Source of the DNA: Sphaeroforma arctica JP610
Taxonomy: Eukaryota
Direction of reading: 5' to 3'
DNA length: 35,062 nucleotides
Assembly: GCF_001186125.1 (NCBI RefSeq)
Contig: NW_014039935.1
Coordinates: 12,986-48,047, forward strand
Shown here: positions 4,997 through 35,007 of the stretch, one piece after another
Numbering within the stretch: position 1 is the stretch's first letter
Layout of the letters: every line of letters begins with the position of its first letter
Position numbers and translations under genes: made by a program
Notes under the pieces: generated by a model
What the model was told of the DNA's origin: nothing
The model's input: the letters and a program-made list of their open reading frames with translations, nothing else
Databases searched by the model: none

Positions 4997-5413
4997 TTTT
5001 ATACCTAAGGTGTTTGTGCTAGTGTTCAGCCGCTTGAGGTGGCCAGGGTAAATGCTCATATCGTCAGTACGAGAAACCTTCTGCAGAACACTTTAACACT
5101 TCGATGGTATTTCGACATCTCTGCAACTAAATCTCACGCTGATCACATGATACCTTTCCGCATATATTAAAACTCGCTTAGGAATGCAGCTATTTTTAGA
5201 ATGTAGTGGTTGACAGACTTAATCAACTCTCGGGAGTTGGTTGAGAAACTTAATCTGCTTTCGGTAGTCGGCTAAGTAGTAACTCAACTCTCGGGAGTAA
5301 TTTAAATATCTTAATTAGCTCTCGGGAGTGAGCTAACTCCGATGACTTCTATAAATCAAAGAGGTTTTCTTACTGTAAAATCTGGCCTGAGACCTGTAGT
5401 CTCTCACTCGGCT
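4997..5413. repeat. ~420-bp dispersed direct repeat, copy 2
   Basis: Diverged copy of 2117-2540, offset ~2880 bp. Confidence 0.92.
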
Positions 5414-12362: not shown

Positions 12363-12434
12363 TGCCTCCGCATGGGATTGAACCATGGACCTTCACATTA
12401 CGAGTGTGACGCGATACCACTTTGCCACAGAGGA
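12363..12434 (-). tRNA. tRNA-Thr-CGT: tRNA-Thr, anticodon CGT (atypical U1:C72 and A12:C23 mismatches; possibly a pseudogene)
   Basis: Reverse complement is TCCTCTGTGGCAAAGTGGTATCGCGTCACACTCGTAATGTGAAGGTCCATGGTTCAATCCCATGCGGAGGCA. Perfect anticodon stem TCACA/TGTGA with loop CT-CGT-AA; perfect T arm CATGG-TTCAATC-CCATG; A and B boxes present; no intron. Confidence 0.92.
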
Positions 12435-14002: not shown

Positions 14003-15992
14003 TCAAACGTTGAATGCAGCCAGAAACTCCGCGGTGGAGTCGGTCTTGGGTCGCTCTGGTATGTGCAGTTGTCGGTGCGCCGCACTCTCTCCGAACGTCA
14101 GAGGGAAGCCCCAACCCCTCTCGACCAACAGCCTGTGCAAAGACAAACACTCCTCCAGTGCCATACCACCCTCTTCTGTAGAAGTACCAATACTATTAGC
14201 CGCCGCGGCTTTGCCCGATCCAGCAGCGGCTGATGACCCACCAGCCGCCTGTAAACTCGCGGTGGGGACAATAACGTTCTCGTTCGAGGTGTTGGTTACC
14301 ATGGCAATGAGATCCGCAACACTCGCCACCTTGGCCGGCACTTCGCCCATACTCAGCACCCGCACCTGTGCATTCGCGTCCCGGGCACCCCCCACAAACA
14401 CACTCAGTGCACGCCTGCACGAGGGTCGCTCAACCACCTTCAACTGGGTGGGCAAGTTCAGTGTCAGCGGAGGCTGAGACTGAGGAGGCTCTGCCTGTGT
14501 GTCAGGTTGAGGCTCGACTTGAGTGCCATTGGCTGCGTCAAGGGGCGCATGCGGCTGTGTGTCGGTTGGTGCGGTGAGTGGTTCGTGTGATGTTGCCAGA
14601 GTGTGGTCTGGGTCGTGTTCGAGTGGGGCGGTGAGTGGTTGGTGGAGTGATTCTACCGGCGCGTCCTGTGGCTGTGATTGAGTGTCTTCTACCGGCTTGT
14701 CCATTGTCTGTGCAGGTGGTTGCGAATGCTCCTGTGCCTGACCCACGAGTGGGCCCTCGCCCGCATCGGTCTGGTCTGTGCTACTGGTGTGGTTGTATTC
14801 ATGCGCACTGACATCCATGTGCGCTTCTTCCACATGGGGTTGGTCCACAGTACCACCGTTCGCGTTCTCCGAGTCCGCCTTGTTCACGTATATCTCGGGG
14901 CTCGTGGTGATGCCCGTGGGGTCTGTATCATTCGGGTGTGGCAGCGTGTGCGGGTACTGACCGACAGTCCCGCCCTCGCCCGACTCCATACCTCCCTCCA
15001 CAGTTACAGTAGGTGTGCCTTGCACATCTAAACCGTGAGGGTGTATCGCACTCTCCCCGCTACTGCCGTCTCCGTTCTGCAGCACCGCGAACGGCGCCAC
15101 CCCCACATCCAGGTGCCTCGTATCGAACGCCATCCCGGTTTCACCCGTCATCATTCCGTTGTCTCCCGCATGCATTTCACCTTCACCGGCCGTCATCCCG
15201 TTTTCCCCAATATCCATCCCGTTTTCCACGATATTCAGCGCATTGCCCCCCATGTTCACGTCGCTCTCGCCTGGGTGTATCCCGTTTTCAACGGGTGCAA
15301 CGGTTTCTGGGGCGGCTTCGGAGGCCGCAGGCATGGTATGCTCGTGCTGGGGGTCCTGCACATCTTCGTCCACCTTCTTACCCTCACTCGCACCCAACGC
15401 ATCGTCCGCAGACACGTGGTACTCCGCCTCGGCGCCCGGAGCTATGACCAGGTCTGTGCTATTTATAGACACTTCCGTATTAGGCACAGGACCCTCGGGC
15501 AGGGACAAGGACATGGGTTCCTCTATCGCCACAGTCACCTTCAAGGGCTCCGGCTTGGCAGGTACAGACGGTAGCCTATCAAGCACCACAAAGTCCAGTT
15601 GCTCACCCAACTTGCCCAGAAGCGATGCGAGCGCACTCTCCGCCTGTGACTGCGCCTCGGCCGCCGCAATACGTCCGTGGGCTGCCGCGTCTGAATCCGT
15701 ACCCATCCCGATATCCATACTCTGCTGCTGGTTTATCGCATCATCACCTGAGTCTGGCACGTATGCTGACGAGGGTGCGCCTACGGCATCGGCCGGCCCT
15801 ACACGGTCGTTCTCTTGTCCTGGACCTGGACCTTCTTTTGGGGCCTCCAGGTGCTCGAGGATATTGTATGGGATGAGTATGAGGCCTTGCTTACGCGTAT
15901 CTAAGCTCACAGATGCGAGCTCCTCAATGGTCGACGGAGTCTTCACTTCAAACCACGCCGGGAACGTTTGTTCTGCATACTCGGCCCATTCA
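14003..15992 (-). CDS. Gene 1 terminal exon 15 (rest of SNF2-like lobe with long acidic/Pro/Gln inserts)
   Basis: Contains the 647-aa ORF. Acceptor CACACAG|T (phase 2), TGA stop at 14005-14003. Confidence 0.9.
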
Positions 15993-18900
15993 CTGTGTGT
16001 GGAATAGTAGAGAGGATGGGGATTCAGGGGTTAGGGGTTATGCTTGCGTGGATGTGCGTATGAAATACAAGCAGAAGGTAACTGTACAGTTGAATGCACG
16101 ATAAGATCATCGGAAATGTACCACAGAATCCTCGCCAAAATGAGTACAAATATATGATATGCAAGTATGCACTAAACTATAATGACATGTGTATAAATGG
16201 AAGGTTCTATCTGAGGATACACATACATGCCACATCATCGACAAGCCTATACTCAACGACATTCCTTCAGATACACATATAACCTACCCAACCGTAGCAT
16301 CCGGACAGAACACCACCGACACAGACGCACGCGTCTGATGCATGGCCAACAGGGCTGTAAGCGGACTACACGCATCGCCATGCTGCACTTTGCTAGCGCC
16401 GCTCTCCACAGCCTTGTCGTCCGTGTTCTTATCCGCATTCACATCATTCGCATCTTGGGCGCGTATGTCCGCGCCTATCTCCCCGCTCACGTCTACGGGG
16501 TTGTCCTGGCTACCACCCGTCCCGCTTTCGGTCCCGGAATCCGTCTCAGAGCGCCACAGACAGAGTCCACCGGCATCCACCACCCGCTTCGATAGCTCAT
16601 CGGCGTACAGGCACTGCACAAGAGTGGGTAGCGTGTACACCTTCTCGTCCGTATCCTCCTCGTCCACACACATGTTAATAGACGGAAGGGTGTTGCCGTT
16701 CAGGGCGTCGCCTGTATCGGGGTCGTTGGGGTTGGCCTGTGCCTGTGCGTCTGGTTTGCCCTTGTCCGTGTCTTGTGGGCGTCTGGTGTGGTAGTTGTAC
16801 CGAGACGGTACATTGCTGCGCGAGTTGAGCGCCGCGCTATACTGCGCGTTGAACTCAAAGGTCAGCTGGTTGTTGTGTTGCTTCAGAGTACCGAACTGTT
16901 TGATGATGAGGTGCGCCAATCCGTTGGCGTCCTCGATCTCATCACCGGCGGTCTCATTGGTCGCCGGGTTCGCATCATCGGTGTTCCCTACAATCTGATT
17001 GGCGCTCACACTCACGTCCTCCATATCCATATTCAGGCTTAGATTACTGCTGTGTGCGGTATCCGCAGTTGCGTTTGGCACAAACGCACTCTGATCCGAC
17101 TCACCCACCGCAGCGTCATTGATATCGGTGTTCAAACTGATCTCGGAGGGTTCTGTAAGTCCGGCCAAGGTAGCTGGAGGCTTGGATGCGGGTTTCTTGA
17201 TCTTGGAGCCCGCCACCACCTAATCGGGGAGAAATGACAGGGGTTAACATGGCTAATATATATATATATAATACTCAAGTATAGAATAGAAGACATTCTA
17301 TATGTAATACACCAGATGAAGTATCGTATCATGGTTGTTCTATAACACAGCATGGCCAGCCTAGTGCATATCTATAGTATAGACACCTCAGAGCCATGGA
17401 GCACATATAATTCATAAGCAGACTGCTAAGAATCACGCACACACTCACGAAATATAAGACAAACCCCACACACCCCTTACAATAAACCACAAATACACAA
17501 TACTTAAACCAAATAAGTCATTACACACACGGACAAAAAGCACCGCCTATACCCGACACAGTACACACAGCGATAAACCACTAACACACACATACAACAT
17601 AAGCATACCATCAAACATCAGAAAGACACCTGCACATGCACAAATCATAAACCATTTAAACACACCAGTACATACACAAACCATACAACATTCAAACACA
17701 CCCGCACATACACAAAACCATCAAACATCACAACACACCTGTGCCCACAGGCGCTGCAGGCCACAGCGCACGAAGAAGTCCGCGTACCGCTTGTCAAACC
17801 AGGGCGTCGCAGTAGCGTTGTGATACATCTCCAGCGCCTTGATCACCTGTACGTCCCCATGGCACGTGCACGTGAGAGGGTGTGCATGGTTAGTCGCAGC
17901 AGAGAGTGCCGGCGAGTGAGCGTGTTTGGGTGCCAGTGGCTACGACTGAGTAGACCACTTGGGTTCACGTAGAATCGTGTATATACGATTGTAAGCACAG
18001 TATCAGTAGTTGAGACGGATGGTGTGTGTGTTTGGGTGCCAGTGCATTGCGTGAATTGAGACGGATGACGGGTATTTCCGATCTTCAGGTGTATGTGTAT
18101 GTGTGTATGAGCGCGTGGTTAGAAGTGTGGATGAAATTAACAAAGGGCGTATGATTCTCATGTGTATGCGACAGCCCACTTGCACGTGGTGGGTTGTAAC
18201 GAATTGGGCGATAGAGTATGACCCCTATCGAACAAGCCGAGCCAGGGCAGACCATAGTCCTGCAATGTCTGAGAGAGTGTGGGTAAAGGGTGTCTGGACT
18301 GAGGAAACACCTATCATAGGTACGGCAGAGTCTGAGTAAAGACGTCAGTATAGTAAGTGCGTGTAGGGTATATGAAACGTAGAGGGAAGCGAAGACCAAT
18401 GCTGCACTGACTCACAGACTTGGATTACAAAGCCGCAGTAGGACATAGAGGCAAACATACAAGCAATCACCCCAAGATGACCGGAAAGATTAACGTATAC
18501 TGGGCTGAAGCACCCCCACACAGAACGTAAATGATATAAATCTAGATTAAATTCTGCAAATCCAGACGTTTGTGAATGTATATACACTGGGGATTGCACA
18601 AACTACAACTTACCGCGTCGAAGATGTCCTTCTCCGCAGGCACCCCAAAGATCTCAAACGTGCCCACGCGTCCAACCAGAACGCGTTTATTTTTATCCAC
18701 ATCTCCGAGCTCCGTCACATCGCCAGCCGGTTCATTCGCACCCGCCCTGGCATTGGTCTCCACATCGCTTGCCTTGGGTGCTGCGCCTGCCTTCGCGGCC
18801 TTCTCCCTCTCAACTCGCTTCTCCTTTTCGGCACGCAGCACTTGCTCGATCACGGTGGGCGGGGGGTCCCAACCGACAAACACACGCAGCTCTTCATACG

Positions 18901-21900
18901 AGTATGTGCGAATGGTTTTGAGTAGGACCTGTAGGTAGATGAGATATGGATATTGGTAGGTAGGTAGCTGGTTAGAAGACTACATATCCTGTAAGCGCAT
19001 GAGCATGTATGTATATGCATGCGCGCACATCTATGCATAGGTGCAAATATGTCCACCGAAGTAGAATCAGAGTTCACGCCGATGCTGTGAAGATATTATT
19101 GATAGTTCACGACGTCCAACCACAGTCGACAGCGCTCCGTTTGTGACAGTCCTTTCCCACATCACCCCCAGACACAAACAGTAAACAAGTCACAGTCACA
19201 TACCACTACACGTGCGTAGCTACTGATATATGGCCCCTCCCACCAAGCTCGCCTCATTGAACGTACGAGAAACACTAAACAAGTCACAGTCACATATCAC
19301 TATGCGTGCGTAGCTACTGCTGTATGGTCCCTCACACCAAGCTCACCTCATTGAACGTACGAGAAACACTAAACAAGTCACAGTCACATATCACTACGCG
19401 TGCGTAGCTACTGATGTATGGCCCCTCCCACCAAGCTCACCTCGTTGAAACGTACGATAAACATTAAACAAGTCACAGTCACATATCACTACGCGTGCGT
19501 AGCTACTGATGTATGGCCCCTCCCACCAAGCTCACCTCGTTGAACGTACGATAAACATTAAACAAGTCACAGTCACATATCACTACGCGTGCGTAGCTAC
19601 TGATGTATGGCCCCTCCCACCAAGCTCACCTCGTTGAACGTACGNNNNNNNNNNNNNNNNNNNNACGTAGCTACTGATATATGGCCCCCCCCACCAAGCT
19701 CACCTCATTGAACGTACGGGAGCGTGGATGTGCAGCCGAGTACATATTAAACACGGTGTGCAGCTCCGTCAGTGAATAGTCATTCAGTAGCAACCCACTC
19801 GCACTCGCCGTGTCACGTGACCCCAACAGCGCCGCCACACAGCGACGTACACCGTCCATTCCATCGGCAACACGCGGGCGGACGGCCGCCCCCCGCAGCT
19901 GCCCATATGAGGCAGGCTGCGGATGCCCATATAAGGGAATCTGCGCGGGCAGCATGCCCGTGCCGACACTCGGCGCATCGGTTGGTCCGAGCTCGTCCAT
20001 GGTAGGTAGCATGGTGCTCCCGTCTCCGGGCAGCAGCTCCACCTGCGGCTTTGCCTTGAGCCCCAGGGCCTTACACTTGGTACAACCGCTGCGTTGCTTG
20101 CGCTCGGCAATGAACACGTGCGAGATGTCTGTGGTGCAGCCGAATAACACCTTGCGTTTGGCGGGGAGTGCCTTGAACTGATCGGCGTTGGCTATACGCA
20201 CCACGCCTGTGTGTACAGAGGAGGGTGTTATAGGAAGAGTGAGTGGGGTTTTATCAGGTGAGTGAGTGTGATGCAATAACAGAGAATGGGTCACGGGAAG
20301 AGTGAGTGTGGTTTAGTATCAGGTGAGTGAGTGTGGTTTAGTATCAGGTGAGTGAGTGTGGCGCAGTATCAGACAGTGTGTATCGGGAGCCATGTACTAT
20401 ACCAACACAAATGGCTATCCACCGCAACAGAGTGTGCCGGGAGTGCCCTAGAGTGCGTCTAACCGCAAGCCAAGCCAAGCCCTCCCTAAGCATACTCTAC
20501 ACCGCCAAAGCCACAGAAACCAAACACCCAGCCGTGTCACCGTGCACACACTCACCATTGGTACTCTCCATGATAAGCCTCTCCAGATTACGCACCACCT
20601 CGTCTCGGTGTAGGTTGGGTGGGGCGAACATGTCCTCGTCCGCGTTTCGGCCGGGCAGCAGGTACATGGGCTGCACAGTGCAGTTAGCGCAGCCATTGAC
20701 CCCACAGAAACGGCAGCCGCACGCCACGGTGCAGTACCCGGGTTGGATGACCTGGCGAGAGTGTGTGTAGGTAAGAGAGTGGGAGTGAGAGAGTGTGTGG
20801 GGAAGTGTGGACAGGACGTCCCGGCCCGTGAAGTTCGGAACATACACGGCAGATTGAACTGATTTGCACCATTCTTCTACGTATATACATGTGCATAATA
20901 TATATGGCCTTACAAACCCAAACCCAAGCACAGACGCACACATACCAGGCGTATTTGTGAGGTAGTATACATGTACATAATATATGGTCTTACAAACCCA
21001 AACCCAAGCACATACGCACCCACGCCCGCTCACACACATACCAGGCGTATTAGTGAGGTAGTATACATGTACATAATATATGGTCTTACAAACCCAAACC
21101 CACCCACACCCGCTCGCACACATACCAGATGTATCTGTGAGGTACTGCCACTGGTTATCATCAGCGGCTCGGCAGTGCCCAGGCCTTGGCTGGAGTTCTT
21201 GGAGCGTTGCTTGAGATCGGCGATTTCTCGGTTCATCGTACACTGGGTGCAGCCTTTCTTCTGCTTGCGCTCGGCTATGAAGAAGTGCTTGAGATCGGCC
21301 GTACACCCGTACACCACCTTGCGTTTCTCGGAGAGCTTCTCGAATTGCTCCACGGTGCGTATGCGCTTGCACTTCTCGCCGGCTGGAGAGGATAGGGGCG
21401 GTCGAGTGCGCCGAGATGGGGGTGAGTGTGGCAGGTAAGACACTTGGAGAGTCTCTTGAGGAGTACGGGGATTAAACTTTAGAAGGACGTGTGCGTAGAT
21501 AGGAGGGTTGACATATGGTTGGGTGTCTTGAACAGTTATGTGTATAGATGTTTCTCGGAAGTCACGAGACGTATACATGAATACGTACACACGGGTGTAA
21601 TGTCTTTTGCAAATAGACCGAGCTCTCCCACTTGGGCCATATTTAGGTATGTCTCATTATATGTGTCACTATACAAACCTTCACTGTGAGTGGCAGTGGT
21701 AGTGGTGATGATGTACGTGCGGTGGTATTCACATAGCTATTTATGGATCTCTTTCACACCACACACACCCATCTCTAGACTGTCCAGGTAGGCCACAGCG
21801 GCAGCCTTAGTGGTGACGTGCGCAGGGATAGTGGGCACATGGGACAGATTGCGCCCCGCCAGTTCAAACATGGGCTGCACAACGCACCTGGTATTGACAA

Positions 21901-24900
21901 AAGAAAGCCGAATCTATAAATAGAATGTCACAGGGCTTGATACTTGCGGCGGATATAAAGTACATTTTGAAGGGCCAAATATAGAGATACAATCGACTCC
22001 GCAAGGTTTAAATAAGGAAAACAAATGCCATGCCGGTTTGTCCCTACATATGCACACACCTTTATGCGTACAGACATATTATATGTACACCTATCATACA
22101 CACACACACATACCTCTTAAATCGTACAGACATATATATGAATACACCCTTTTCATATCAACACATGTACACACATACCTCTTTTAAATCGGACAGATAT
22201 ATATATATATATGAACACGCTCTTTTACATACCAACACATGCACACACAAACATCTTTCTCTTAAATCGTACAAACATATATACACACACACTCTTATAC
22301 ATACCAACAAATGCACACACACACACACACATCTCTGCGTGCAGACATGTATATGCACACCTATCACATTCGTCCTCACAGTGTCGGCAGGGTTTCTTGA
22401 CGCTGATGTAGTTGAGGTCGCGCGTGGGTTTGTGCTCCGAGGCCATTTGGTTGTTGTCCATATCGTTGTTGGGTGTGTCATTCAGATGTCTGCATTGGCG
22501 GCACCCCAGTTTCTGTTTACGTTCGGCGATGAACATGTGGTCCACATTGCGGATGCACCTGATGCATAATATTTTTGGGTGGTGGATCAGGACAAAATTC
22601 CGAGCTTGTCTTTTGTTTTGACTGTAATTCCTATGCCGACGAACAATGTGCACTGGATTAAGCGTGGCTAAACACACATACACACACTTATATATATATA
22701 GATAGATATAGATATGTACATATACTTTACTCACATGTATGCATCGAACAACATCGACATGTACAGTCAGATATATAGCAAGTCACACACACACACACAC
22801 TTACACACATACGCAGGTGTATACATAAGACAATACCCATGCACGCAGGTGTATATATACAAATCACCCACAGCCACCCACACGCACAGATGCGTGCAAT
22901 ACACGCACTCACCCATAGACCAGCTTGCGCTTGGCATAGAGCTGCTCGTAGTGACTCACGGAGCGTATGCGCACCACCCCGGGATGCTTCAGGCCCTCAA
23001 TATGGGACACAAAGTCCTTTCTGGTGCTGAGGGTGGGGGGTAGGAACTCGTCTGGGTCAACCAACCGGCCGGGGAGGTCATACATGGGCTGGATAGCACA
23101 GGATGCACACCCTTCATTGTTACACTTGCGACAGCCTTTCATCACTGCGGAGGTGAGTGGGTGTGGGTGAGGCATGGGCTGAGTGAGATAAACAGAGCCG
23201 AGAGGGTAGAGTATGCACACCCTTCATTGCTACACTTGCGACAGCCTTTCANNNNNNNNNNNNNNNNNNNNNNNNNNNNNNNNNNNNNNNNNNNNNNNNN
23301 NNNNNNNNNNNNNNNNNNNNNNNNNNNNNNNNNNNNNNNNNNNNNNNNNNNNNNNNNNNNNNNNNNNNNNNNNNNNNNNNNNNNNNNNNNNNNNNNNNNN
23401 NNNNNNNNNNNNNNNNNNNNNNNNNNNNNNNNNNNNNNNNNNNNNNNNNNNNNNNNNNNNNNNNNNNNNNNNNNNNNNNNNNNNNNNNNNNNNNNNNNNN
23501 NNNNNNNNNNNNNNNNNNNNNNNNNNNNNNNNNNNNNNNNNNNNNNNNNNNNNNNNNNTCATCACTGCGGAGGTGAGTGGGTGTGGGTGAGGCATGGGCT
23601 GAGTGAGATAAACAGGGCCGAGAGAGTAATAAAGCATGCACACTCCTCATTGGTATACCTACGACAGTCTTTCCTCACTGCGTAAGTACACACCCCTACA
23701 AGACGCCCTACCTGTGACAAAATCGGCAAGACCATGGCCCTTGGCACCCGTCGCAGTAGGGCCCAGGGCGTTGGTGCTGGACCCGGAATTCACTATTCCC
23801 ATGGTAGACCCGGGTAGTGGTGCGGTGAGTCGATCGCCTGTTTGGTACGCGGACGGGTTTGTACTGGGAGAGGGTACTCCGGGTAAGGATGCCGAGTACG
23901 TATTGGTATAGTTGAGCTGAGTCCTGTAGGGATCTGGTACGAGGACGAGGAAAGGAATAGGAGTGTAAGGGATGATTTATATATATTATTCGTTGGGAGG
24001 GGGGGGGGGGGAAACAAACAAACAAACGCATTTATAAGGGTATACATGTAACGTAACAGTTTATTGCTTGTCATAGCAGGGGCGAGTTGATCGCTGGGAA
24101 AGGACACGGACAGGGGATTACGTAAAGTACGTATTCATATACGGACTTATTCAATCATACAGAGTTTGCTGACATCTGGGAAATACCTTGAACGTAAAAA
24201 CATGCGAACGCATCTGTGGTTTGTCATCTCCCATATCTGTTGCTAACTCGGATTGATTCGTCTGCAAGGACACCGTGGTGTGCAAACCTTTACGATGCTG
24301 TATGACTTGCAGCATGTGAGCTCATACACACACACACATATATATATACCCATACATACCCATACACACACACATATATACATCCCTTGACGCTAGCATC
24401 TGTAGCATTCCCATACCTGCTGCCTGGTCGTACTGATTGGCATACAAGGACACCATGGTGTTCGGGCTGGGTGTGGCATTGGCGTTGGGTGGCATGGTCA
24501 GGCTCACTTGCGACGGCACGGCAGTCAAGGGGAACTCTTTGGGGTCACCGGTCCTTTCTAGCAGACATTGAGGACAGCCCTTTTTCTGCTTCTTCTCGGC
24601 CACGAAGAAGTGGGGGATGGTGTTGAGACACATGTACAGTAACTTCTTCTTATCTACGAAGGTGGAAGAGAGAAGCGGGTGGTTAGGGTGTGGTATGTTT
24701 ATGCCACACGTGAATTGATACAGCTCTACAATTGCGTTGATGAAGATCGACTCCATCTGGCCCTCTCCCCTATTCTCTCGACGCATACAACTCACACATA
24801 GAGACCACGTACACATATGTGTATAGTTTATGTATACAAAGCAGACAAATATAAAAAAATCAATATAATATAATATAATATAATATATATACATGTACAT

Positions 24901-26208
24901 TTCCTCTTGCAGATATTTCACCACCACACATCACAGCAACGCTACACATACCTGGCAATGTTTCGAACTGGTGCGGGTGGGTGACGTGCATAATGTGGTC
25001 GTCGTGTAGATCGCGCAGATGCGTTAGCAGTTCCCTGGGTAGAACAGAGTGCGTGGGTAGGTAGTATTCTATTAATAGATCTTCGAGCGGTTCTACAGTA
25101 GGTAACAAAGGTACGATCACATACACTCAGAGACGAGAAGGTACCACGCCTCAAAACTGAACAGTAAACCGCACGTCCTTACAGGATTCTCAAGCGTCTA
25201 TAGCTCATCCAAACGGCAACATAAAAGAACCGCCCCCCCCCAAAGGGAAAACCCAAGAACCCAAAGTATGTGGAATGGCAAAGGCCGGGGGTGTACCAAC
25301 CTCAAGCCCATGGTCGGTGAAGGGCAGAACTGTGAGATGTCGATCTGTCGTCCGGGCAGCACAAACATGGGCTTCACACAGCACACCACACAGCCCACTA
25401 TGCCCGTGCAGTACTTGCAGTCCTTCTTGACGGCTATGAAGCTCATGGGCGCGTCCCAGTCCTGTGAAAGGGGACAGGTAACGGGGACAAAAGGACCGGG
25501 TGTTTTGTGACAGGACAATATGGGGTACGGTATAACAACCGCTTGTTTGACCGATATAGAGATCATGGGTGGACCTTATAGGGAAGGGAATACTAAGGGC
25601 AAAATGAGGACATTTTGGTACCCCCGCCCAAAAAAAATCCTTGTGGTGTTTATAACCTTTTTTTTAACGGTCAAAAAGCACACGAGTGCTTTCTAACACC
25701 CAATCGTAATATTCCAAATAGGAGTTACCCATATGGTACGTTTGAAATGAGTGCCAGTGCATGCATGTGACTCAAAACGTAGCACACCACACAGCCCACT
25801 CCCCCGGTGCAGCACTTGTAGTCGTTTCAGGATGATACAGAGCGCCAAAAAGTATCCCACAGCCCCCAATTTTGATAAATTTGGCCGAGTTTTCGGAAAC
25901 GAGAAAAGAAATTGCTACAGGCACGCATACCAGCAACCACTTATACACAACACCTATAAACAATTTCATTTACATTCCACAGGTAACTACATATAAACAA
26001 TATCAATAGCAAATGAAACCGCTACCTATGCACCTAAACGCAGCCATATATACTCAATACATAAATGTAAACACGTGTACATAATATATAATACTCCAGT
26101 CGAGCCACTCAGAGACAGGGGTCATACGGGTGTGGCAGCTTTGTACGTCTTCTTGCGCTTGGAGACCATTTCGGTGACGCCGTAGCCGTCTGCCGGGCGT
26201 TTCTCCAT
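14003..26208 (-). CDS. 15-exon gene, 1877-aa protein: 4 tandem Cys/His (putative zinc-binding) modules + unknown middle domain + degenerate SNF2-like ATPase N-lobe
   Basis: Hand-spliced exons: 26208-26128, 25461-25301, 25034-24952, 24653-24417, 23933-23712, 23144-22913, 22558-22361, 21887-21769, 21382-21126, 20751-20556, 20206-19704, 18928-18614, 17846-17739, 17219-16288, 15992-14003. All introns are GT-AG with matching phases. Total 5634 nt = 1878 codons from ATG to TGA. Splicing restores the internal protein repeats across junctions. The product call is by eye from motifs. Confidence 0.85.
16288..17219 (-). CDS. Gene 1 exon 14 (acidic low complexity + start of SNF2-like lobe)
   Basis: Matches the 311-aa ORF. 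Acceptor CGATTAG|GTG, donor GG|GTAGGT (phase 2). Confidence 0.88.
17739..17846 (-). CDS. Gene 1 exon 13 (VIKALEMYHNATATPWFDKRYADFFVRCGLQRLWAQ), absent from the ORF track
   Basis: GC-rich island within a CA-rich intron. Acceptor GTACAG|GTG, donor CAG|GTGTGT; 108 nt, phase 0/0. Confidence 0.8.
18614..18928 (-). CDS. Gene 1 exon 12 (VLLKTIRTYSYEEL...KDIFDA)
   Basis: Acceptor CCTACAG|GTC, donor GCG|GTAAGT; 315 nt, phase 0/0. Confidence 0.85.
19182..19718. repeat. 94-bp tandem array (at least 5.5 units, contains a gap) overlapping the exon 11 donor
   Basis: TAAACAAGTCACAGTCACA at 19182, 19276, 19370, 19465 and 19559. Confidence 0.95.
19704..20206 (-). CDS. Gene 1 exon 11 (module 4 C-half + start of middle domain)
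   Basis: Acceptor CACACAG|GC, donor GAG|GTGAGC. Confidence 0.85.
20252..20371. repeat. Short intronic repeat (GTATCAGGTGAGTGAGTGTG, ~25-bp period)
   Basis: Three to four imperfect copies in intron 10. Confidence 0.75.
20556..20751 (-). CDS. Gene 1 exon 10 (module 4 N-half CRFC..CANC, QPMYLLPGR)
   Basis: Acceptor CTCGCCAG|GTC, donor ATG|GTGAGT. Confidence 0.85.
20880..21144. repeat. 84-96-bp tandem array (x3) overlapping the exon 9 donor
   Basis: Repeated ATAATATATGGyCTTACAAACCCAAACCCA...CACATACCAG. Confidence 0.9.
21126..21382 (-). CDS. Gene 1 exon 9 (module 3 C-half KRKVVYGC..HFFIAERKQKKGCTQC)
   Basis: Acceptor CTCTCCAG|CC, donor CTG|GTATGT. Confidence 0.85.
21769..21887 (-). CDS. Gene 1 exon 8 (module 3: CVVQPMFELAGR...), absent from the ORF track
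   Basis: Acceptor ATACCAG|G, donor ATGG|GTGTGT. Phases 2/1 fit both neighbours. Confidence 0.85.
22361..22558 (-). CDS. Gene 1 exon 7 (module 2 end, module 3 start)
   Basis: Acceptor GCATCAG|G, donor AG|GTGTGC. Encodes HMFIAERKQKLGCRQC and KKPCRHCEDECDR. Confidence 0.85.
22913..23144 (-). CDS. Gene 1 exon 6 (module 2: CRKC..CASC, QPMYDLPGR)
   Basis: Acceptor CTCCGCAG|TG, donor GG|GTGAGT. Confidence 0.85.
23103..23683. repeat. 110-bp tandem array overlapping the exon 6 acceptor (largely within an assembly gap)
   Basis: ATGCACACCCTTCATTG at 23103 and 23213; CATCACTGCGGAGGTGAGTGG at 23140 and 23560; diverged copy at 23636-23683. Confidence 0.88.
23712..23933 (-). CDS. Gene 1 exon 5 (S/T/G/P-rich linker)
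   Basis: Acceptor GTACCAG|AT, donor ACAG|GTAGGG. Open in the required frame; phases 1/1. Confidence 0.75.
24417..24653 (-). CDS. Gene 1 exon 4 (module 1 C-half KKKLLYMC..H..KQKKGCPQC + linker)
   Basis: Acceptor CTTCGTAG|AT, donor GCAG|GTATGG. Confidence 0.85.
24952..25034 (-). CDS. Gene 1 exon 3 (module 1 middle)
   Basis: Acceptor CTACCCAG|G (phase 2), donor CCAG|GTATGT (phase 1). Confidence 0.8.
25301..25461 (-). CDS. Gene 1 exon 2 (module 1 N-half: CKYC..CVVC, KPMFVLPGR)
   Basis: Acceptor CTTTCACAG|GAC, donor AG|GTTGGT. Confidence 0.85.
26128..26208 (-). CDS. Gene 1 exon 1 (MEKRPADGYGVTEMVSKRKKTYKAATP; basic NLS-like KRKK)
   Basis: ATG at 26208, donor CCC|GTATGA, phase 0 matches exon 2. 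The start codon is not independently confirmed. Confidence 0.65.
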
Positions 26209-32107: not shown

Positions 32108-35007
32108 CGGCACCTCTTGCCATGTGTTCAGTTGATTTACACGTGTTACCGTGTGCTTATGCACATCTGTTCAATACTTTGGCTTTGCAGGCGAGAGGGT
32201 TCGACTGGGGATCGCTTGCACTCGTTCTTCCAAAAGACTGTCACGACACCCGTCAACTCACTCATAGGCACAAACAGCAGCGACAGGCGGAACAGTATGA
32301 AAGCCTCGACAAGCGATGAGCGGACACGCAGTGATTGGGGTCCAGGAGTGTATGTATACGTAGTCTGTTAATATATCTATATAATTGAAATAGAGTGTAT
32401 GTATGTGTAAATAGTATGTGTATATATCTATATACCAAAATGGAATGTATGTGTATACAGCACGTGGATGTATCTCTATACTCATAATGGAGTGTATATG
32501 TATATGTGCATGTATGTTGATATATCAAAACCCTGTATACAAAATATAGGGTGTATGTGTGTATGGATCTTTATCAAATCTGTATATTTAAAAATGGAGT
32601 GGAATGGCTGCACCTGACGTGCATTGAGATTCATGTACGTGTAAATGTACATACGAAATGGCTAGTGGACGTGCATTAAGATTCATGTATGTGTAAATGT
32701 ACATACGAAACGGTTAGTGGAACGGATTCTGTAACAACACACTTCACCACATAATATTGGTAATTATATATGTGTATCTGTATCGAAGAAATAGTTATAA
32801 ACAGCACAACATTGGTAATCATGTACGTGTATCTGTGTAGAAGAAATAGCTATAAACAGCAACCTTTTCTGTACACTCACACTTAGCCACCTAAAATTGA
32901 AGAGATGCACTTTCGTATATTCAGAGACTTTCTGGTTTGAGTTAATTGGCGTCTCTGCCTATGTGAACCTTCCCTGTATCCCTTTTGCAAATATTCACAC
33001 TTAAGATCAAAATGGGTCCTGTCGTACCAAAATAACCGGACAAGTAACCCCGTTCGCTGGAAAATGAGGACTTGGAGTACGACCTAACCCAATTTTTTGC
33101 CTTATTTTTGTCACAGAACGGCGTATGGGGCCGACTACACCGACTACCGCAGGAAGCTCATGAACATTAAGAATGTATGCTGCACCCATCCATGTGTCCA
33201 ATGTTCTATTTTAGGTGCAATACATTACGGTTCGGGTTCAGAATGTTAGTGAACCCTAAAATCGGGCCACTATTTCATATTGTCCACTCGGTTAAGGGCC
33301 ACTTTCAGGCCGATACTGTTTAAGATCGCGCCGCATTCGATCCTTTGTCTAGTTGTATTCCGATTCAAGGCCTGATCATATCTATAGCACGATTGTCTAA
33401 TACTTTCAGCTCGTTTATATTCCACTTTCAAACTATTGCTTTCAACTCGTTTATATTCCACTTTCAAACTATTGCTTTCAACTCGTTTATATTCCACTTT
33501 CAGGCCAAAGGAGAACTAGAATAATACTAAACTATTGCTTTCAGTTCGTTGATATTCCACTTTCAGGCCAAAGGAGAGCTAGAATAGTACTAGACTATAG
33601 CATTCAGCTCGATTATGTTCCACTTTCAGGCCAAAGGAGAGCTAGAATAGAACTAGACTATTGCTTTCAGTTCGTTGATATTCCACTTTCAGGCCAAAGG
33701 AGAGCTAGAATAGTACTAGACTATAACATTCAGCTCGTTTATATTCCACTTTCAGGCCAAAGGAGAGCTAGAATAGTACTAGACTATAGCTTTCAGCTCG
33801 TTTATGTTCCACTTTCAGGCCAAAGGAGAGCTAGAATAGTACTAGACTATTGCTTTCAACTCGTTTATATTCCACTTTCAGGCCAAAGGAGAGCTAAAAA
33901 AGTACTAGACTATTGCTTTCACCTCGTTTATATTCCACTTTCAGGCCAAAGGAGAGCTACAGCAAGACATGGTGGTAGATCTGGAGCAGCTGATGCTGCA
34001 ACAAGAAGAAGTCGATGACAAGCATGTGCGTGACGTTGCAATGAGTCATGTTTTTACAAAGCTTTACTTGGTTTGAGTATATTCGTTCTCCTTTTAAAAC
34101 GCAAATGTTCTGTTGTATTGGGGCTGTTTTGCACAGCACCAGGTGCTGCATTGTATGAATATATTAGGGCTGTATTGCATGAACATAGCAGGGTTATATA
34201 TCAAAGTTGTATATTGTATGAATGTATTATGGTTATGTATCAGGGTTATATATTGTATGAGAATATTGGGGTTTTATATCAGGGTTGTATATTGTATGAG
34301 AATATTGGGGTTGTATATCAGGGTTGTATATTGTAAGAGAATATTGGGGTTATATATCAGGGTTGTATAATGTATGAATGTATTAGGGTTATGTATTAGG
34401 GTTATATATCATTAGGGTTATATATCAGGGTTATATATTGTATGAGAATATTAGGTTTGTATATCAAGTTGTATATTGTATGAATGTATTAGGGTTATGT
34501 ATCAGGGTTGTATATTGTATGAATATAGCAAGGTGGTATGGCACGAGGTCTGTTTCTACAGCATGTAATTCACTATATCACACGCAGCAGTATCCGCATT
34601 GACAGTTAACACGGAGAGAAAAGATATGTCACCCATCTATACCTAGCTAGGACCATTATAGATAAGCTAACCAAACTACTATATGCAGGCGACATTCACT
34701 CATTTGAAGATAAAGCATTGGGTTTTAGGGTTTAGCAGAAAGGGTTTTAGGGTTTTAGGGTTTTAGTTGTGTATGCGGAATGAGACAAGGTCAGTTGTCT
34801 AGTCCACGCAATCAATGGGGTGTGGCAGACCATTGAGACCTCAGAAGCAAACAATTACACACGCGGGTATGCAGACTTAAACAAGCACATCATGTACGTT
34901 CACGAGGATAAGGGGATCATGAAGGAGAAGAAGGTACCACACAATATGGTTTGTGATGATTTAGCCTGGTTGTCATATAGGAAGATAAGAAGATCGAGTT
35001 GCGCTGT
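30317..35007 (+). CDS. Partial multi-exon gene 2, unknown product, possible PH-like domain, truncated by the window end
   Basis: Candidate exons: 30317-30402 (MSNSQPDL...GKRGHR), 32191-32347 (REGSTGDRL...WGPG), 33945-34025 (AKGELQQDMVVDLEQ...DDKH), ~34803-34933 (HAINGVWQ...KEKK), 34981-35007 (EDKKIELRC). The first three join in phase. The junction into the 34.8-kb exon is unresolved, so an exon may be missing. Confidence 0.6.
30870..31020. repeat. Degenerate ~30-32-bp minisatellite (AAACAGTAGGAAAT...)
   Basis: AAACAGTArGAAA at ~30905, 30935 and 30968. Confidence 0.7.
31659..31762 (+). pseudogene. Degenerate duplicate of gene 2 exon 32191-32292
   Basis: Reads REGSTGDRLHPFVQKTITAPVNPL, then a +1 frameshift, then VGTNSSGKRK. 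The acceptor CAG is replaced by TAC. The upstream intron sequence is also homologous. Confidence 0.85.
31847..32107. repeat. (CA)n(TA)n microsatellite with a gap
   Basis: Directly visible. Confidence 0.95.
33397..33959. repeat. 63-bp tandem array (8 acceptor-bearing units, preceded by 36-bp subunits) overlapping a gene 2 acceptor
   Basis: TTCCACTTTCAG ends at 33503, 33566, 33629, 33692, 33755, 33818, 33881 and 33944. Confidence 0.95.
34150..34528. repeat. 39-bp intronic minisatellite (~9 units)
   Basis: GAATATTGGG at 34261, 34300 and 34339; consensus close to GGGTTrTATATCAGGGTTGTATATTGTATGAGAATATT. Confidence 0.9.
34718..34766 (+). repeat. Short telomere-like (TTTTAGGG/TTTAGGG) tract
   Basis: GGTTTTAGGGTTTAG...AGGGTTTTAGGGTTTTAGGGTTTTAG. 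Confidence 0.7.

What the first reader, a model, noticed from the sequence alone, without database searches (positions are those of the whole stretch)
20073..25440. Four tandem copies of an unrecognised ~105-aa double-zinc-site module, visible only after splicing
Seen: the spliced protein has four colinear repeats. The consensus is [FY]xxVxxxCxxC-x3-5-CxxCx[VI][QK]PM[FY]xL[PA]GR, ~35 aa, R[IV]-x4-QFExL-x2-K[RK]K[LV][VL][YF]GC-x5-H-x-F[IV]AE[RK]KQ[KR]xGCxxC. Spans are R1 25440-24564, R2 23721-22492, R3 22410-21240 and R4 20736-20073. All seven Cys and the His are kept in every copy while the linkers diverge. Knowledge: the C-terminal K-K-hydrophobic-C..H..GCxxC half resembles the treble-clef/zinc-ribbon family PF14311 (DUF4379). 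I do not recognise the full module with its N-terminal C4 site and QPMxxLPGR motif. Inference: a basic, two-zinc nucleic-acid- or chromatin-binding repeat, possibly an undescribed domain family.
Basis: partly seen in the sequence, partly recalled or inferred. Interest (0 to 1): 0.88.

Follow-up and report, generated by a model that had tools for sequence, protein, structure and literature searches.

The report
New zinc repeats on half-SNF2 pseudoenzyme
A gene of a single-celled relative of animals encodes four copies of a likely two-zinc module that matched no known domain in our searches, joined to what is predicted to be a broken half of a chromatin-remodelling motor, so the protein likely binds chromatin without moving it.

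Summary
A 15-exon minus-strand gene (26208-14003, all 14 introns GT-AG) gives a 1877-aa protein identical to Sphaeroforma arctica SARC_07680. It holds four 103-105-aa repeats (35-49% identical), each with 7 Cys + 1 His. A repeat profile against 1.84 billion representatives found one other protein, Creolimax CFRG6542T1, with the same four repeats in the same order (62-67% per position). Pfam, PDB, BFVD and the ESM Atlas gave no match for the module. The last ~30 residues resemble DUF4379 weakly (best 13-15 bits, hhalign 16-49%): kinship is possible, membership is not shown. It has no Walker A GKT and a broken Walker B, and no lobe 2 was found. Best reading: a nuclear, catalytically dead half-remodeller, a counterpart of plant MOM1 (which kept the other half), aimed at chromatin by a new basic zinc-repeat array. 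Zinc, DNA binding, location and expression are untested.

The parts
14003..26208 (-). Whole gene, 15 exons, 1877 aa (SARC_07680). Exons: 26208-26128, 25461-25301, 25034-24952, 24653-24417, 23933-23712, 23144-22913, 22558-22361, 21887-21769, 21382-21126, 20751-20556, 20206-19704, 18928-18614, 17846-17739, 17219-16288, 15992-14003
   Evidence: All 14 introns GT-AG; translation identical to P0001
26140..26160 (-). KRKKTYK, likely nuclear localisation signal (aa 17-23)
   Evidence: Identical in the Creolimax ortholog next to a large indel; NLS role inferred from the recalled K-K/R-x-K/R rule
24565..25440 (-). Repeat R1 (aa 35-138), split by introns 2 and 3
   Evidence: 65 of 104 residues identical to Creolimax
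22492..23721 (-). Repeat R2 (aa 259-361), split by introns 5 and 6
   Evidence: 69 of 103 identical; AlphaFold best model pLDDT 75
21240..22410 (-). Repeat R3 (aa 389-492), split by introns 7 and 8
   Evidence: 65 of 104 identical
20073..20736 (-). Repeat R4 (aa 536-640), split by intron 10
   Evidence: 64 of 105 identical
17739..19862 (-). Conserved, predicted helical region of unknown family (aa 711-904)
   Evidence: 64 of 194 identical to Creolimax; helical but pLDDT under 50 in the model; no family match
14102..16634 (-). Degenerate SNF2-type ATPase lobe 1 (aa ~1100-1845) with a 380-aa acidic insertion between motifs II and III. Motif I strand 16571-16545, Ia 16319-15986, Ib 15883-15857, II 15598-15572, III 14365-14336, post-lobe helix 14140-14102
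   Evidence: fold evidence is from the compact Creolimax ortholog, aligned to this protein

Best explanation
The gene encodes four conserved 7-Cys/1-His repeats, predicted to fold around two zinc ions each, and a C-terminal domain predicted to be a SNF2-type ATPase lobe 1 that lacks the ATP-binding motif, so the protein is likely a nuclear, non-catalytic chromatin factor whose repeats would bind DNA and place it on chromatin. Shown: the spliced protein, the four repeats, their one-to-one conservation in Creolimax, their basic charge, and the absence of Walker A, an intact DExH and lobe-2 motifs. Predicted: a compact alpha/beta fold in which the QPMY strand and the KLVYGC and FIAE strands belong to one module, and a RecA-like lobe-1 fold for the C-terminus. 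Inferred: zinc binding; nuclear import through KRKK; each position-specific repeat reading its own stretch of DNA through the conserved basic K-[RK]-K and AE-[RK]-KQ-[KR] face; the dead lobe acting as a docking surface for partners or nucleosomes rather than as a motor.
For: Repeats keep 62-67% identity to their positional counterparts in Creolimax while the linkers keep 15-27%, and the tree pairs repeats by position with support 98-100: each copy is under its own constraint. 22 columns are invariant in 8 of 8 repeats, 8 of them Cys/His and several Lys. Net charge of aa 1-645 is +22, of the rest -102. Lobe 1: ESM Atlas first hit SNF2-rel_dom at 0.95 with 176 of 256 features, and 10 of the 10 best named hits share the family or clan; Foldseek top four are XPB, ISW1, ALC1 and Rad54 (E 4e-3 to 7e-3, prob 1.00); VIA against 48,161 chains gives Z 11.1-11.8 (rmsd 3.1-6.1, 132-177 aligned) with 10 of the top 12 rows SNF2-family; hhalign to 38 SNF2 lobe-1 sequences gives 78%, E 1.7e-5, 81 columns, motifs Ia to II. 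No GK[ST] in P0001, no DExH and no QxxGRxxR in either protein; lobe-2 profile gives 0.3% and no hit in six frames of the window. The repeat's C-terminal part resembles DUF4379, a family linked to a probable DNA-binding domain in PMC12350094 (passage).
Against: No experiment or read data. Only two proteins are known, so profiles and folds are shallow. Only 1 of 5 R2 models is confident (75; the others 48-51) and its last CxxC is under pLDDT 50; zinc geometry could not be inspected. The C-terminal model has mean pLDDT 42; no Foldseek hit reaches E 0.001; non-SNF2 superfamily-2 enzymes tie within 1 Z (LlaBIII is rank 1), so SNF2 as the source is likely, not certain. Pfam finds no SNF2 domain and the lobe-1 HMM scores about 0 bits on the single proteins. 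The DUF4379 likeness is weak. A GxxxxGKS string exists in Creolimax at aa 863-871, about 180 residues before the lobe; it is not conserved here. Nothing separates DNA from histone or RNA as the ligand.
Confidence: 0.5

Rival explanations
1. The repeats are histone-tail or protein readers, like the PHD fingers of CHD-type remodellers, and the protein is a decayed reader-plus-SNF2 fusion.
For: Eight ligands in one predicted module, as in binuclear reader fingers (recalled); reader domains in front of a SNF2 lobe is a common layout (10.1101/2021.11.30.470311, passages); conserved hydrophobic QPM[FY]xLPGR motif.
Against: Ligand order is C5-H-C2, not C4-H-C3; no PHD, RING or LIM hit in Pfam; modules are basic (+4 to +7), which suits nucleic acid better than basic histone tails.
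Confidence: 0.2
2. The protein is one half of a split motor: lobe 2 is made by another gene and the two act together.
For: The chain ends just after lobe 1 and the following helix in both species. No genome was held, so other loci were not searched.
Against: Walker A and Walker B sit in lobe 1 and are decayed in both species, so a partner lobe 2 would not restore hydrolysis; no lobe 2 in the 14 kb downstream.
Confidence: 0.1
3. The gene is a domesticated mobile or viral gene: DUF4379-type repeats plus a virus-type SNF2, now a host DNA-binding or defence factor. This concerns origin and can hold together with the best explanation.
For: DUF4379 occurs in tandem in giant-virus nucleases and phage homing endonucleases (PMC5513546, PMC12350094; passages) and was transferred to fungi (10.1101/2021.12.02.471044; passage). 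20 of 117 DUF4379-type domains score 5 bits or more against the repeat profile, versus at most 2 (Cys/His fixed) and 9 (C, H, G, W, K fixed) in 20 control rounds each. Many ESM Atlas hits are viral SNF2 clusters (the tool warns that this is no sign of transfer).
Against: 14 introns and single-copy, colinear orthologs; no relative in viral, metagenome or prokaryote scans; best structural matches include eukaryotic remodellers; the N-terminal two thirds of the module have no DUF4379 counterpart.
Confidence: 0.2
4. The repeats bind RNA, or the protein works outside chromatin, and lobe 1 derives from another superfamily-2 helicase.
For: DEAH/DEAD, XPB, NS3 and restriction-enzyme lobes score close to SNF2 lobes; basic zinc modules often bind RNA (recalled).
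Against: SNF2 dominates the ESM Atlas list and the top VIA rows (10 of 12, 11 of 12); motif Ia reads xFCxxxxVxEW like SNF2 IxCPxSLxxNW.
Confidence: 0.1
5. The repeats are an artefact of gene modelling or assembly.
For: An N gap (23252-23558) and tandem copies of splice sites lie in the introns; no RNA reads were laid on the junctions.
Against: Identity with the NCBI model; the Creolimax protein is colinear across all seven junctions inside repeats with 0-3 gap columns in 16; exon GC3 0.71-0.75 versus intron GC 0.45.
Confidence: 0.02

Closest known systems
Arabidopsis MOM1 (CHD3-like silencing factor with an incomplete SNF2 domain)
   Same: A chromatin protein that keeps only half of a SNF2 domain (PMC6084981, passage seen).
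   Different: MOM1 keeps the second half, this protein the first; no sequence link was found or expected; here four new zinc repeats stand in front; a silencing role is not shown.
SNF2-family ATPases (SRCAP/SWR1, INO80, ISWI, BRM, ALC1, CSB, Rad54, Mot1)
   Same: Predicted RecA-like lobe 1 with motifs I, Ia, Ib, II, III in order and the following helix.
   Different: No Walker A GKT, Walker B reads DRL (Sphaeroforma) or DEI (Creolimax), no lobe 2, a 380-aa acidic insertion; subfamily cannot be told (Z ties).
PF14311 / DUF4379 probable treble-clef zinc finger (and the related DUF723/CapR domains)
   Same: Order K-hydrophobic-C ... H-x-aromatic ... I-x-x-R ... G-C-x-x-C over about 30 residues; tandem copies.
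   Different: No Pfam hit; C-x5-H and H-x11-C spacing in 8 of 8 repeats versus H-x13-17-C in 112 of 117; no WW; 60 extra N-terminal residues with a second C4 set and QPMxxLPGR.
Binuclear eight-ligand fingers (PHD C4HC3, RING C3HC4, LIM C2HC5, zf-C5HC2 of KDM5; patterns recalled)
   Same: Seven Cys and one His per module; same ligand order as zf-C5HC2.
   Different: About 62 residues between Cys4 and Cys5; no Pfam or structural match.

Membership tests
PF14311 DUF4379 | Score above the Pfam cut-off (24.5 bits) | tested here: not met
   No hit at E up to 10 for P0001 or P0002; three fetched true members score 77-86 bits
PF14311 DUF4379 | Four ligands in the order C, H, C-x2-C with K-hydrophobic lead-in and I-x-x-R | tested here: met
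   Alignment to L065 domain, 13 bits; invariant in 8 of 8 repeats except for the I and R substitutions
PF14311 DUF4379 | H to CxxC spacing of 13-17 residues and WWxC / HxW tryptophans | tested here: not met
   x11 in 8 of 8 repeats versus x13-17 in 112 of 117; repeats have [YF]GC and HxF. The comparison set was fetched with a WW..H.W pattern, so its Trp content is built in
PF14311 DUF4379 | Significant profile-profile similarity | tested here: inconclusive
   hhalign 16% whole module, 49% C-half (28 columns), but 43% to DUF723-type on 7 columns alone; 20 of 117 at 5 bits or more versus control maxima 2 and 9; best single score inside the strict control
PF14311 DUF4379 | Treble-clef fold | tested here: inconclusive
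   Last CxxC under pLDDT 50; no clear match (best Z 3.5)
DUF723 / CapR-type domain | Profile similarity beyond the GCxxC motif | tested here: not met
   hhalign 12%, 7 columns; counts within controls for 235 domains. Only 1 of 3 sampled set members was confirmed as DUF723
PHD / RING / LIM / zf-C5HC2 fingers | Ligand order and Pfam match | tested here: not met
   Order C5-H-C2 with a long central gap; no Pfam hit; patterns recalled
SNF2-family ATPase | RecA-like lobe 1 fold with motifs I to III in order | tested here: met
   on the Creolimax ortholog; low-confidence model, so family rather than superfamily is likely only
SNF2-family ATPase | Walker A (GxGKT) | tested here: not met
   No GK[ST] in P0001; the one in P0002 lies about 180 aa before the lobe and is not conserved
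SNF2-family ATPase | Walker B (DExH) | tested here: not met
   LDFVVLDRL and IDLVIMDEI
SNF2-family ATPase | Lobe 2 with motif VI (QxxGRxxR) | tested here: not met
   hhalign 0.3%; no hit in either protein or six frames of the window; rest of the genome not held
SNF2-family ATPase | DNA-stimulated ATP hydrolysis | not testable with these tools
   Needs protein
MOM1-like incomplete-SNF2 silencing factor | Only one half of the SNF2 domain retained | tested here: met
   Lobe 1 only; MOM1 keeps the other half, so analogy, not membership
MOM1-like incomplete-SNF2 silencing factor | CMM motifs and a role in transcriptional silencing | not tested
   No MOM1 sequence was fetched; function needs experiments

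The most novel reading that the evidence does not exclude
The module is a new two-zinc fold that reads DNA sequence in an array of four position-specific units, and the protein founds a class of lobe-1-only SNF2 pseudoenzymes: an independent, mirror-image repeat of the plant MOM1 story in close relatives of animals, where a remodeller lost its motor and became a targeting or silencing scaffold.
Probability: 0.3. Interest if true: 0.78.

Novelty: new variant of a known kind. Interest (0 to 1): 0.56.

Why it matters
It adds an unannotated zinc-binding domain with no fold match and a SNF2-derived pseudoenzyme that Pfam-based surveys of chromatin machinery cannot see (no Pfam hit in either ortholog). 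Ichthyosporeans are used to reconstruct gene regulation before animals; a hidden chromatin factor there means such inventories undercount lineage-specific regulators. If it silences or targets chromatin, it would show that loss of the SNF2 motor with retention of one lobe happened at least twice, with opposite halves. The reach is limited: two species so far and no function tested.

Tried and rejected
Pfam on 11 single-exon frames: only weak hits to one exon (best E 0.004, far below cut-off). PDB sequence searches with P0001, P0002, A2 and A3: best E 0.5. ESM Atlas on R2: no usable hit. Foldseek of the R2 model against PDB and BFVD: none at E 0.001; VIA best Z 3.5, PDZ-like, treated as background; absence does not prove a new fold. 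Word searches of 5.8 billion proteins: 1 of 12, 2 of 4419 and 0 of 43 candidates; one search missed the Creolimax ortholog, so this search is insensitive. Phage tblastn: 2 chance hits. Related loci: 0 of 264 metagenome and 0 of 345 viral stretches. Motif scans: 14 metagenome, 7 viral and 5 prokaryote loci, all 26 short matches without the rest of the module. A recalled HARP-domain likeness just before lobe 1 could not be tested: none of 27 (of 88) SNF2 N-terminal regions scanned carried HARP and a two-sequence profile found nothing. A candidate extra exon at 18268 was dropped: it breaks the frame as tried and is absent from the NCBI model and the Creolimax alignment. One search used too strict a pattern (5 of 8 repeats) and was redone. 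The HMM score rows were faulty (stale file) and were redone; only its hhalign and spacing rows are used. Gene identifiers were in no paper and in no held supplement of PMC4739763 (3 files) or PMC6855841 (12 files). Earlier scan notes: nothing. No complex prediction was run because no binding pair is claimed.

Full report
1. Observation. Reading the minus strand and fixing exon edges by script gives a 15-exon gene from 26208 to 14003. All 14 introns are GT-AG and 266-775 bases long; exon GC3 is 0.68 overall and 0.71-0.75 in the repeats against intron GC 0.45. A search with one exon returned P0001, Sphaeroforma arctica SARC_07680, 1877 aa; my spliced model is identical to it. They are 35-50% identical, with local scores 183-257 against shuffle maxima of 43-62. 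A profile of the four finds exactly four copies in the protein. Introns fall at different places in each repeat, so this is not a recent duplication of an exon block (inference).

2. Relatives. A profile of the repeats (A2) run by HMMER over 1,835,955,588 representatives returned two proteins at E up to 0.001: P0001 and P0002. P0002 is Creolimax fragrantissima CFRG6542T1, 1287 aa; both species are Ichthyophonida. It has the same four repeats in the same order. Positional pairs are 62-67% identical, non-positional pairs 34-49%, and a tree pairs them by position with support 98-100. Linkers keep only 4 of 27 to 27 of 120 residues. So the array predates the split of the two genera and each copy is held in its own form. 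22 columns are invariant in 8 of 8 repeats: seven Cys, one His, and P, GR, P, L, K, K, F, AE, KQ, G. The pattern is C-x2-C-x3-7-C-x2-C-x~62-C-x5-H-x11-C-x2-C. The Creolimax protein runs across all seven junctions that lie inside repeats with 0-3 gap columns in 16: independent support for the splicing, though both are gene models. No RNA reads were examined. Other searches found nothing more; proteins over 50% identical to these two would hide behind them, and ichthyosporean sampling is thin, so the true range may be wider.

3. The module against known domains. No Pfam family for either protein, no PDB sequence match, no ESM Atlas hit. AlphaFold on R2 with a 9-row alignment gave one confident model of five (pLDDT 75, pTM 0.66; residues 21-90 at 76-85): strand 21-26 (IQPMYD), helix 45-54, short helix 66-70, strands 77-82 (KLVYGC) and 90-93 (FIAE). 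Foldseek (PDB, BFVD) and VIA found no convincing fold (best Z 3.5), which does not prove the fold new. hhalign gave 16% over 30 columns for the whole module and 49% for the C-half, but 43% to the second set on GCxxC alone. The best pair aligns well by eye, with K-hydrophobic-C, H, I-x-x-R and GCxxC in register and a three-residue deletion (13 bits). 20 of 117 domains reach 5 bits, against at most 2 with Cys/His fixed and at most 9 with C, H, G, W, K fixed (20 rounds each), yet the best single score lies inside the stricter control. Spacing differs (H-x11-C in 8 of 8 versus x13-17 in 112 of 117). Verdict: a possible remote cousin in the last third, not a member.

4. The ortholog alignment shows conserved blocks at the C-terminus. 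For P0002 1020-1287 the ESM Atlas gives SNF2-rel_dom at 0.95 (176 of 256 features; 10 of 10 best named hits share family or clan; the tool's calibration was not made on parts). A model of P0002 733-1287 is poor overall (pLDDT 42) but mostly 50-79 over model residues 341-500. Foldseek ranks XPB, ISW1, ALC1 and Rad54 first (E 4e-3 to 7e-3, none at 0.001). VIA over 48,161 chains gives Z 11.1-11.8 for the top 12, of which 10 are SNF2-family lobes and rank 1 is a type ISP restriction enzyme; the second look gives Z up to 12.5 (rmsd 3.8, 157 aligned) for SRCAP, 11 of the top 12 SNF2-family. hhalign against 38 SNF2 lobe-1 sequences from viral contigs gives 78%, E 1.7e-5, motifs Ia to II; against lobe 2, 0.3%. 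Plain HMM search scores about 0 bits, so the domain is invisible to routine annotation. Motifs run in order: GGLCLW (I strand, aa 1121), LTALLAM (1191), SVVFCP (Ia, 1205), LILIPYN (Ib, 1252), LDFVVLDRL (II, 1347), VRVLSMGE (III, 1758), LHRLL (1833) (motif names recalled). The P-loop GKT is replaced by a variable insertion in both species, Walker B is DRL or DEI, there is no QxxGRxxR, and this species carries a 380-aa insertion of net charge -56 between II and III. Both proteins end soon after the lobe; no lobe 2 appears in six frames of the window, where a tRNA-Thr gene follows 1.6 kb downstream. Between the repeats and the lobe lies a conserved helical region of unknown family. The N-terminus has SKRKKTYK in both species.

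5. How it most likely works. Shown: array, conservation, charge split (+22 for aa 1-645, -102 for the rest), loss of catalytic motifs. Predicted: module fold and lobe-1 fold. Inferred: two zinc ions per module, nuclear import, DNA binding by the basic array with each unit reading its own site, and a scaffold role for the dead lobe. I put 0.5 on this reading, 0.2 on histone or protein reading, 0.1 on a split motor, 0.1 on RNA or non-chromatin work, 0.02 on artefact. A mobile or viral origin (0.2) is a separate question.

6. Comparison with what is known. It works like a reader-plus-pseudo-remodeller. The nearest analogue is Arabidopsis MOM1, which has an incomplete SNF2 domain, only the second part, and silences transcription (PMC6084981; one passage seen). 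A eukaryote-wide survey notes that Helicase-C and SNF2_N co-occur in most remodellers (10.1101/2021.11.30.470311; passages), so a lobe-1-only protein is unusual. DUF4379-related domains occur in tandem before nucleases and are thought to bind DNA (PMC12350094, PMC5513546; passages; 10.1101/2021.12.02.471044, passage). It is not a member of PF14311 by cut-off or spacing, and not an active SNF2 ATPase by Walker A, Walker B or lobe 2.

7. Novelty and limits. Five identifiers of the two genes occur in no searchable paper; topic searches (listings and abstract starts only) showed no description of this module or of a lobe-1-only SNF2 protein in Ichthyosporea. Subscription papers and bioRxiv supplements were out of reach and may list these genes under other identifiers. 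Verdict: real, undescribed as far as searched, a new variant of a known kind; interest 0.56, held down by two known members and no functional data.

Noticed in passing
window 19176-19644, 20888-21060, 22053-22096, 23210-23251, 23559-23624, 24229-24281: Several introns of this gene hold tandem or decayed copies of the neighbouring exon edge with its splice site: a 94-bp unit five times after exon 11, two copies after exon 9, copies of the exon 6 acceptor and first codons on both sides of the N gap. They could act as alternative splice sites; some may be assembly effects.
   Followed up: partly
window 25781-25826 (minus): Intron 1 holds an 85% identical 46-bp copy of the exon 2 stretch coding the first CxxC pair of R1.
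   Followed up: no
window 23252-23558: 307-base N gap inside intron 5, within repeat R2; further exon-edge copies or a hidden exon cannot be excluded, though Creolimax is colinear here.
   Followed up: partly
window 18180-18268 (minus): Exon-like open stretch after a CAG in intron 12; absent from the NCBI model and from the Creolimax alignment.
   Followed up: partly
window 12363-12434 (minus): tRNA-Thr(CGT) gene 1.6 kb downstream of the stop codon.
   Followed up: no
window 17739-19862 and about 16790-16880 (minus): A conserved helical region (aa 711-904) and a short conserved block just before the lobe (aa ~1020-1050) have no family match; the latter recalls a HARP domain from memory, untested.
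   Followed up: partly
window ~2120-2540 and ~5000-5410; 33420-33960: Two similar ~420-bp stretches and a tandem array of ~65-bp units, seen by eye; likely repeat elements.
   Followed up: no
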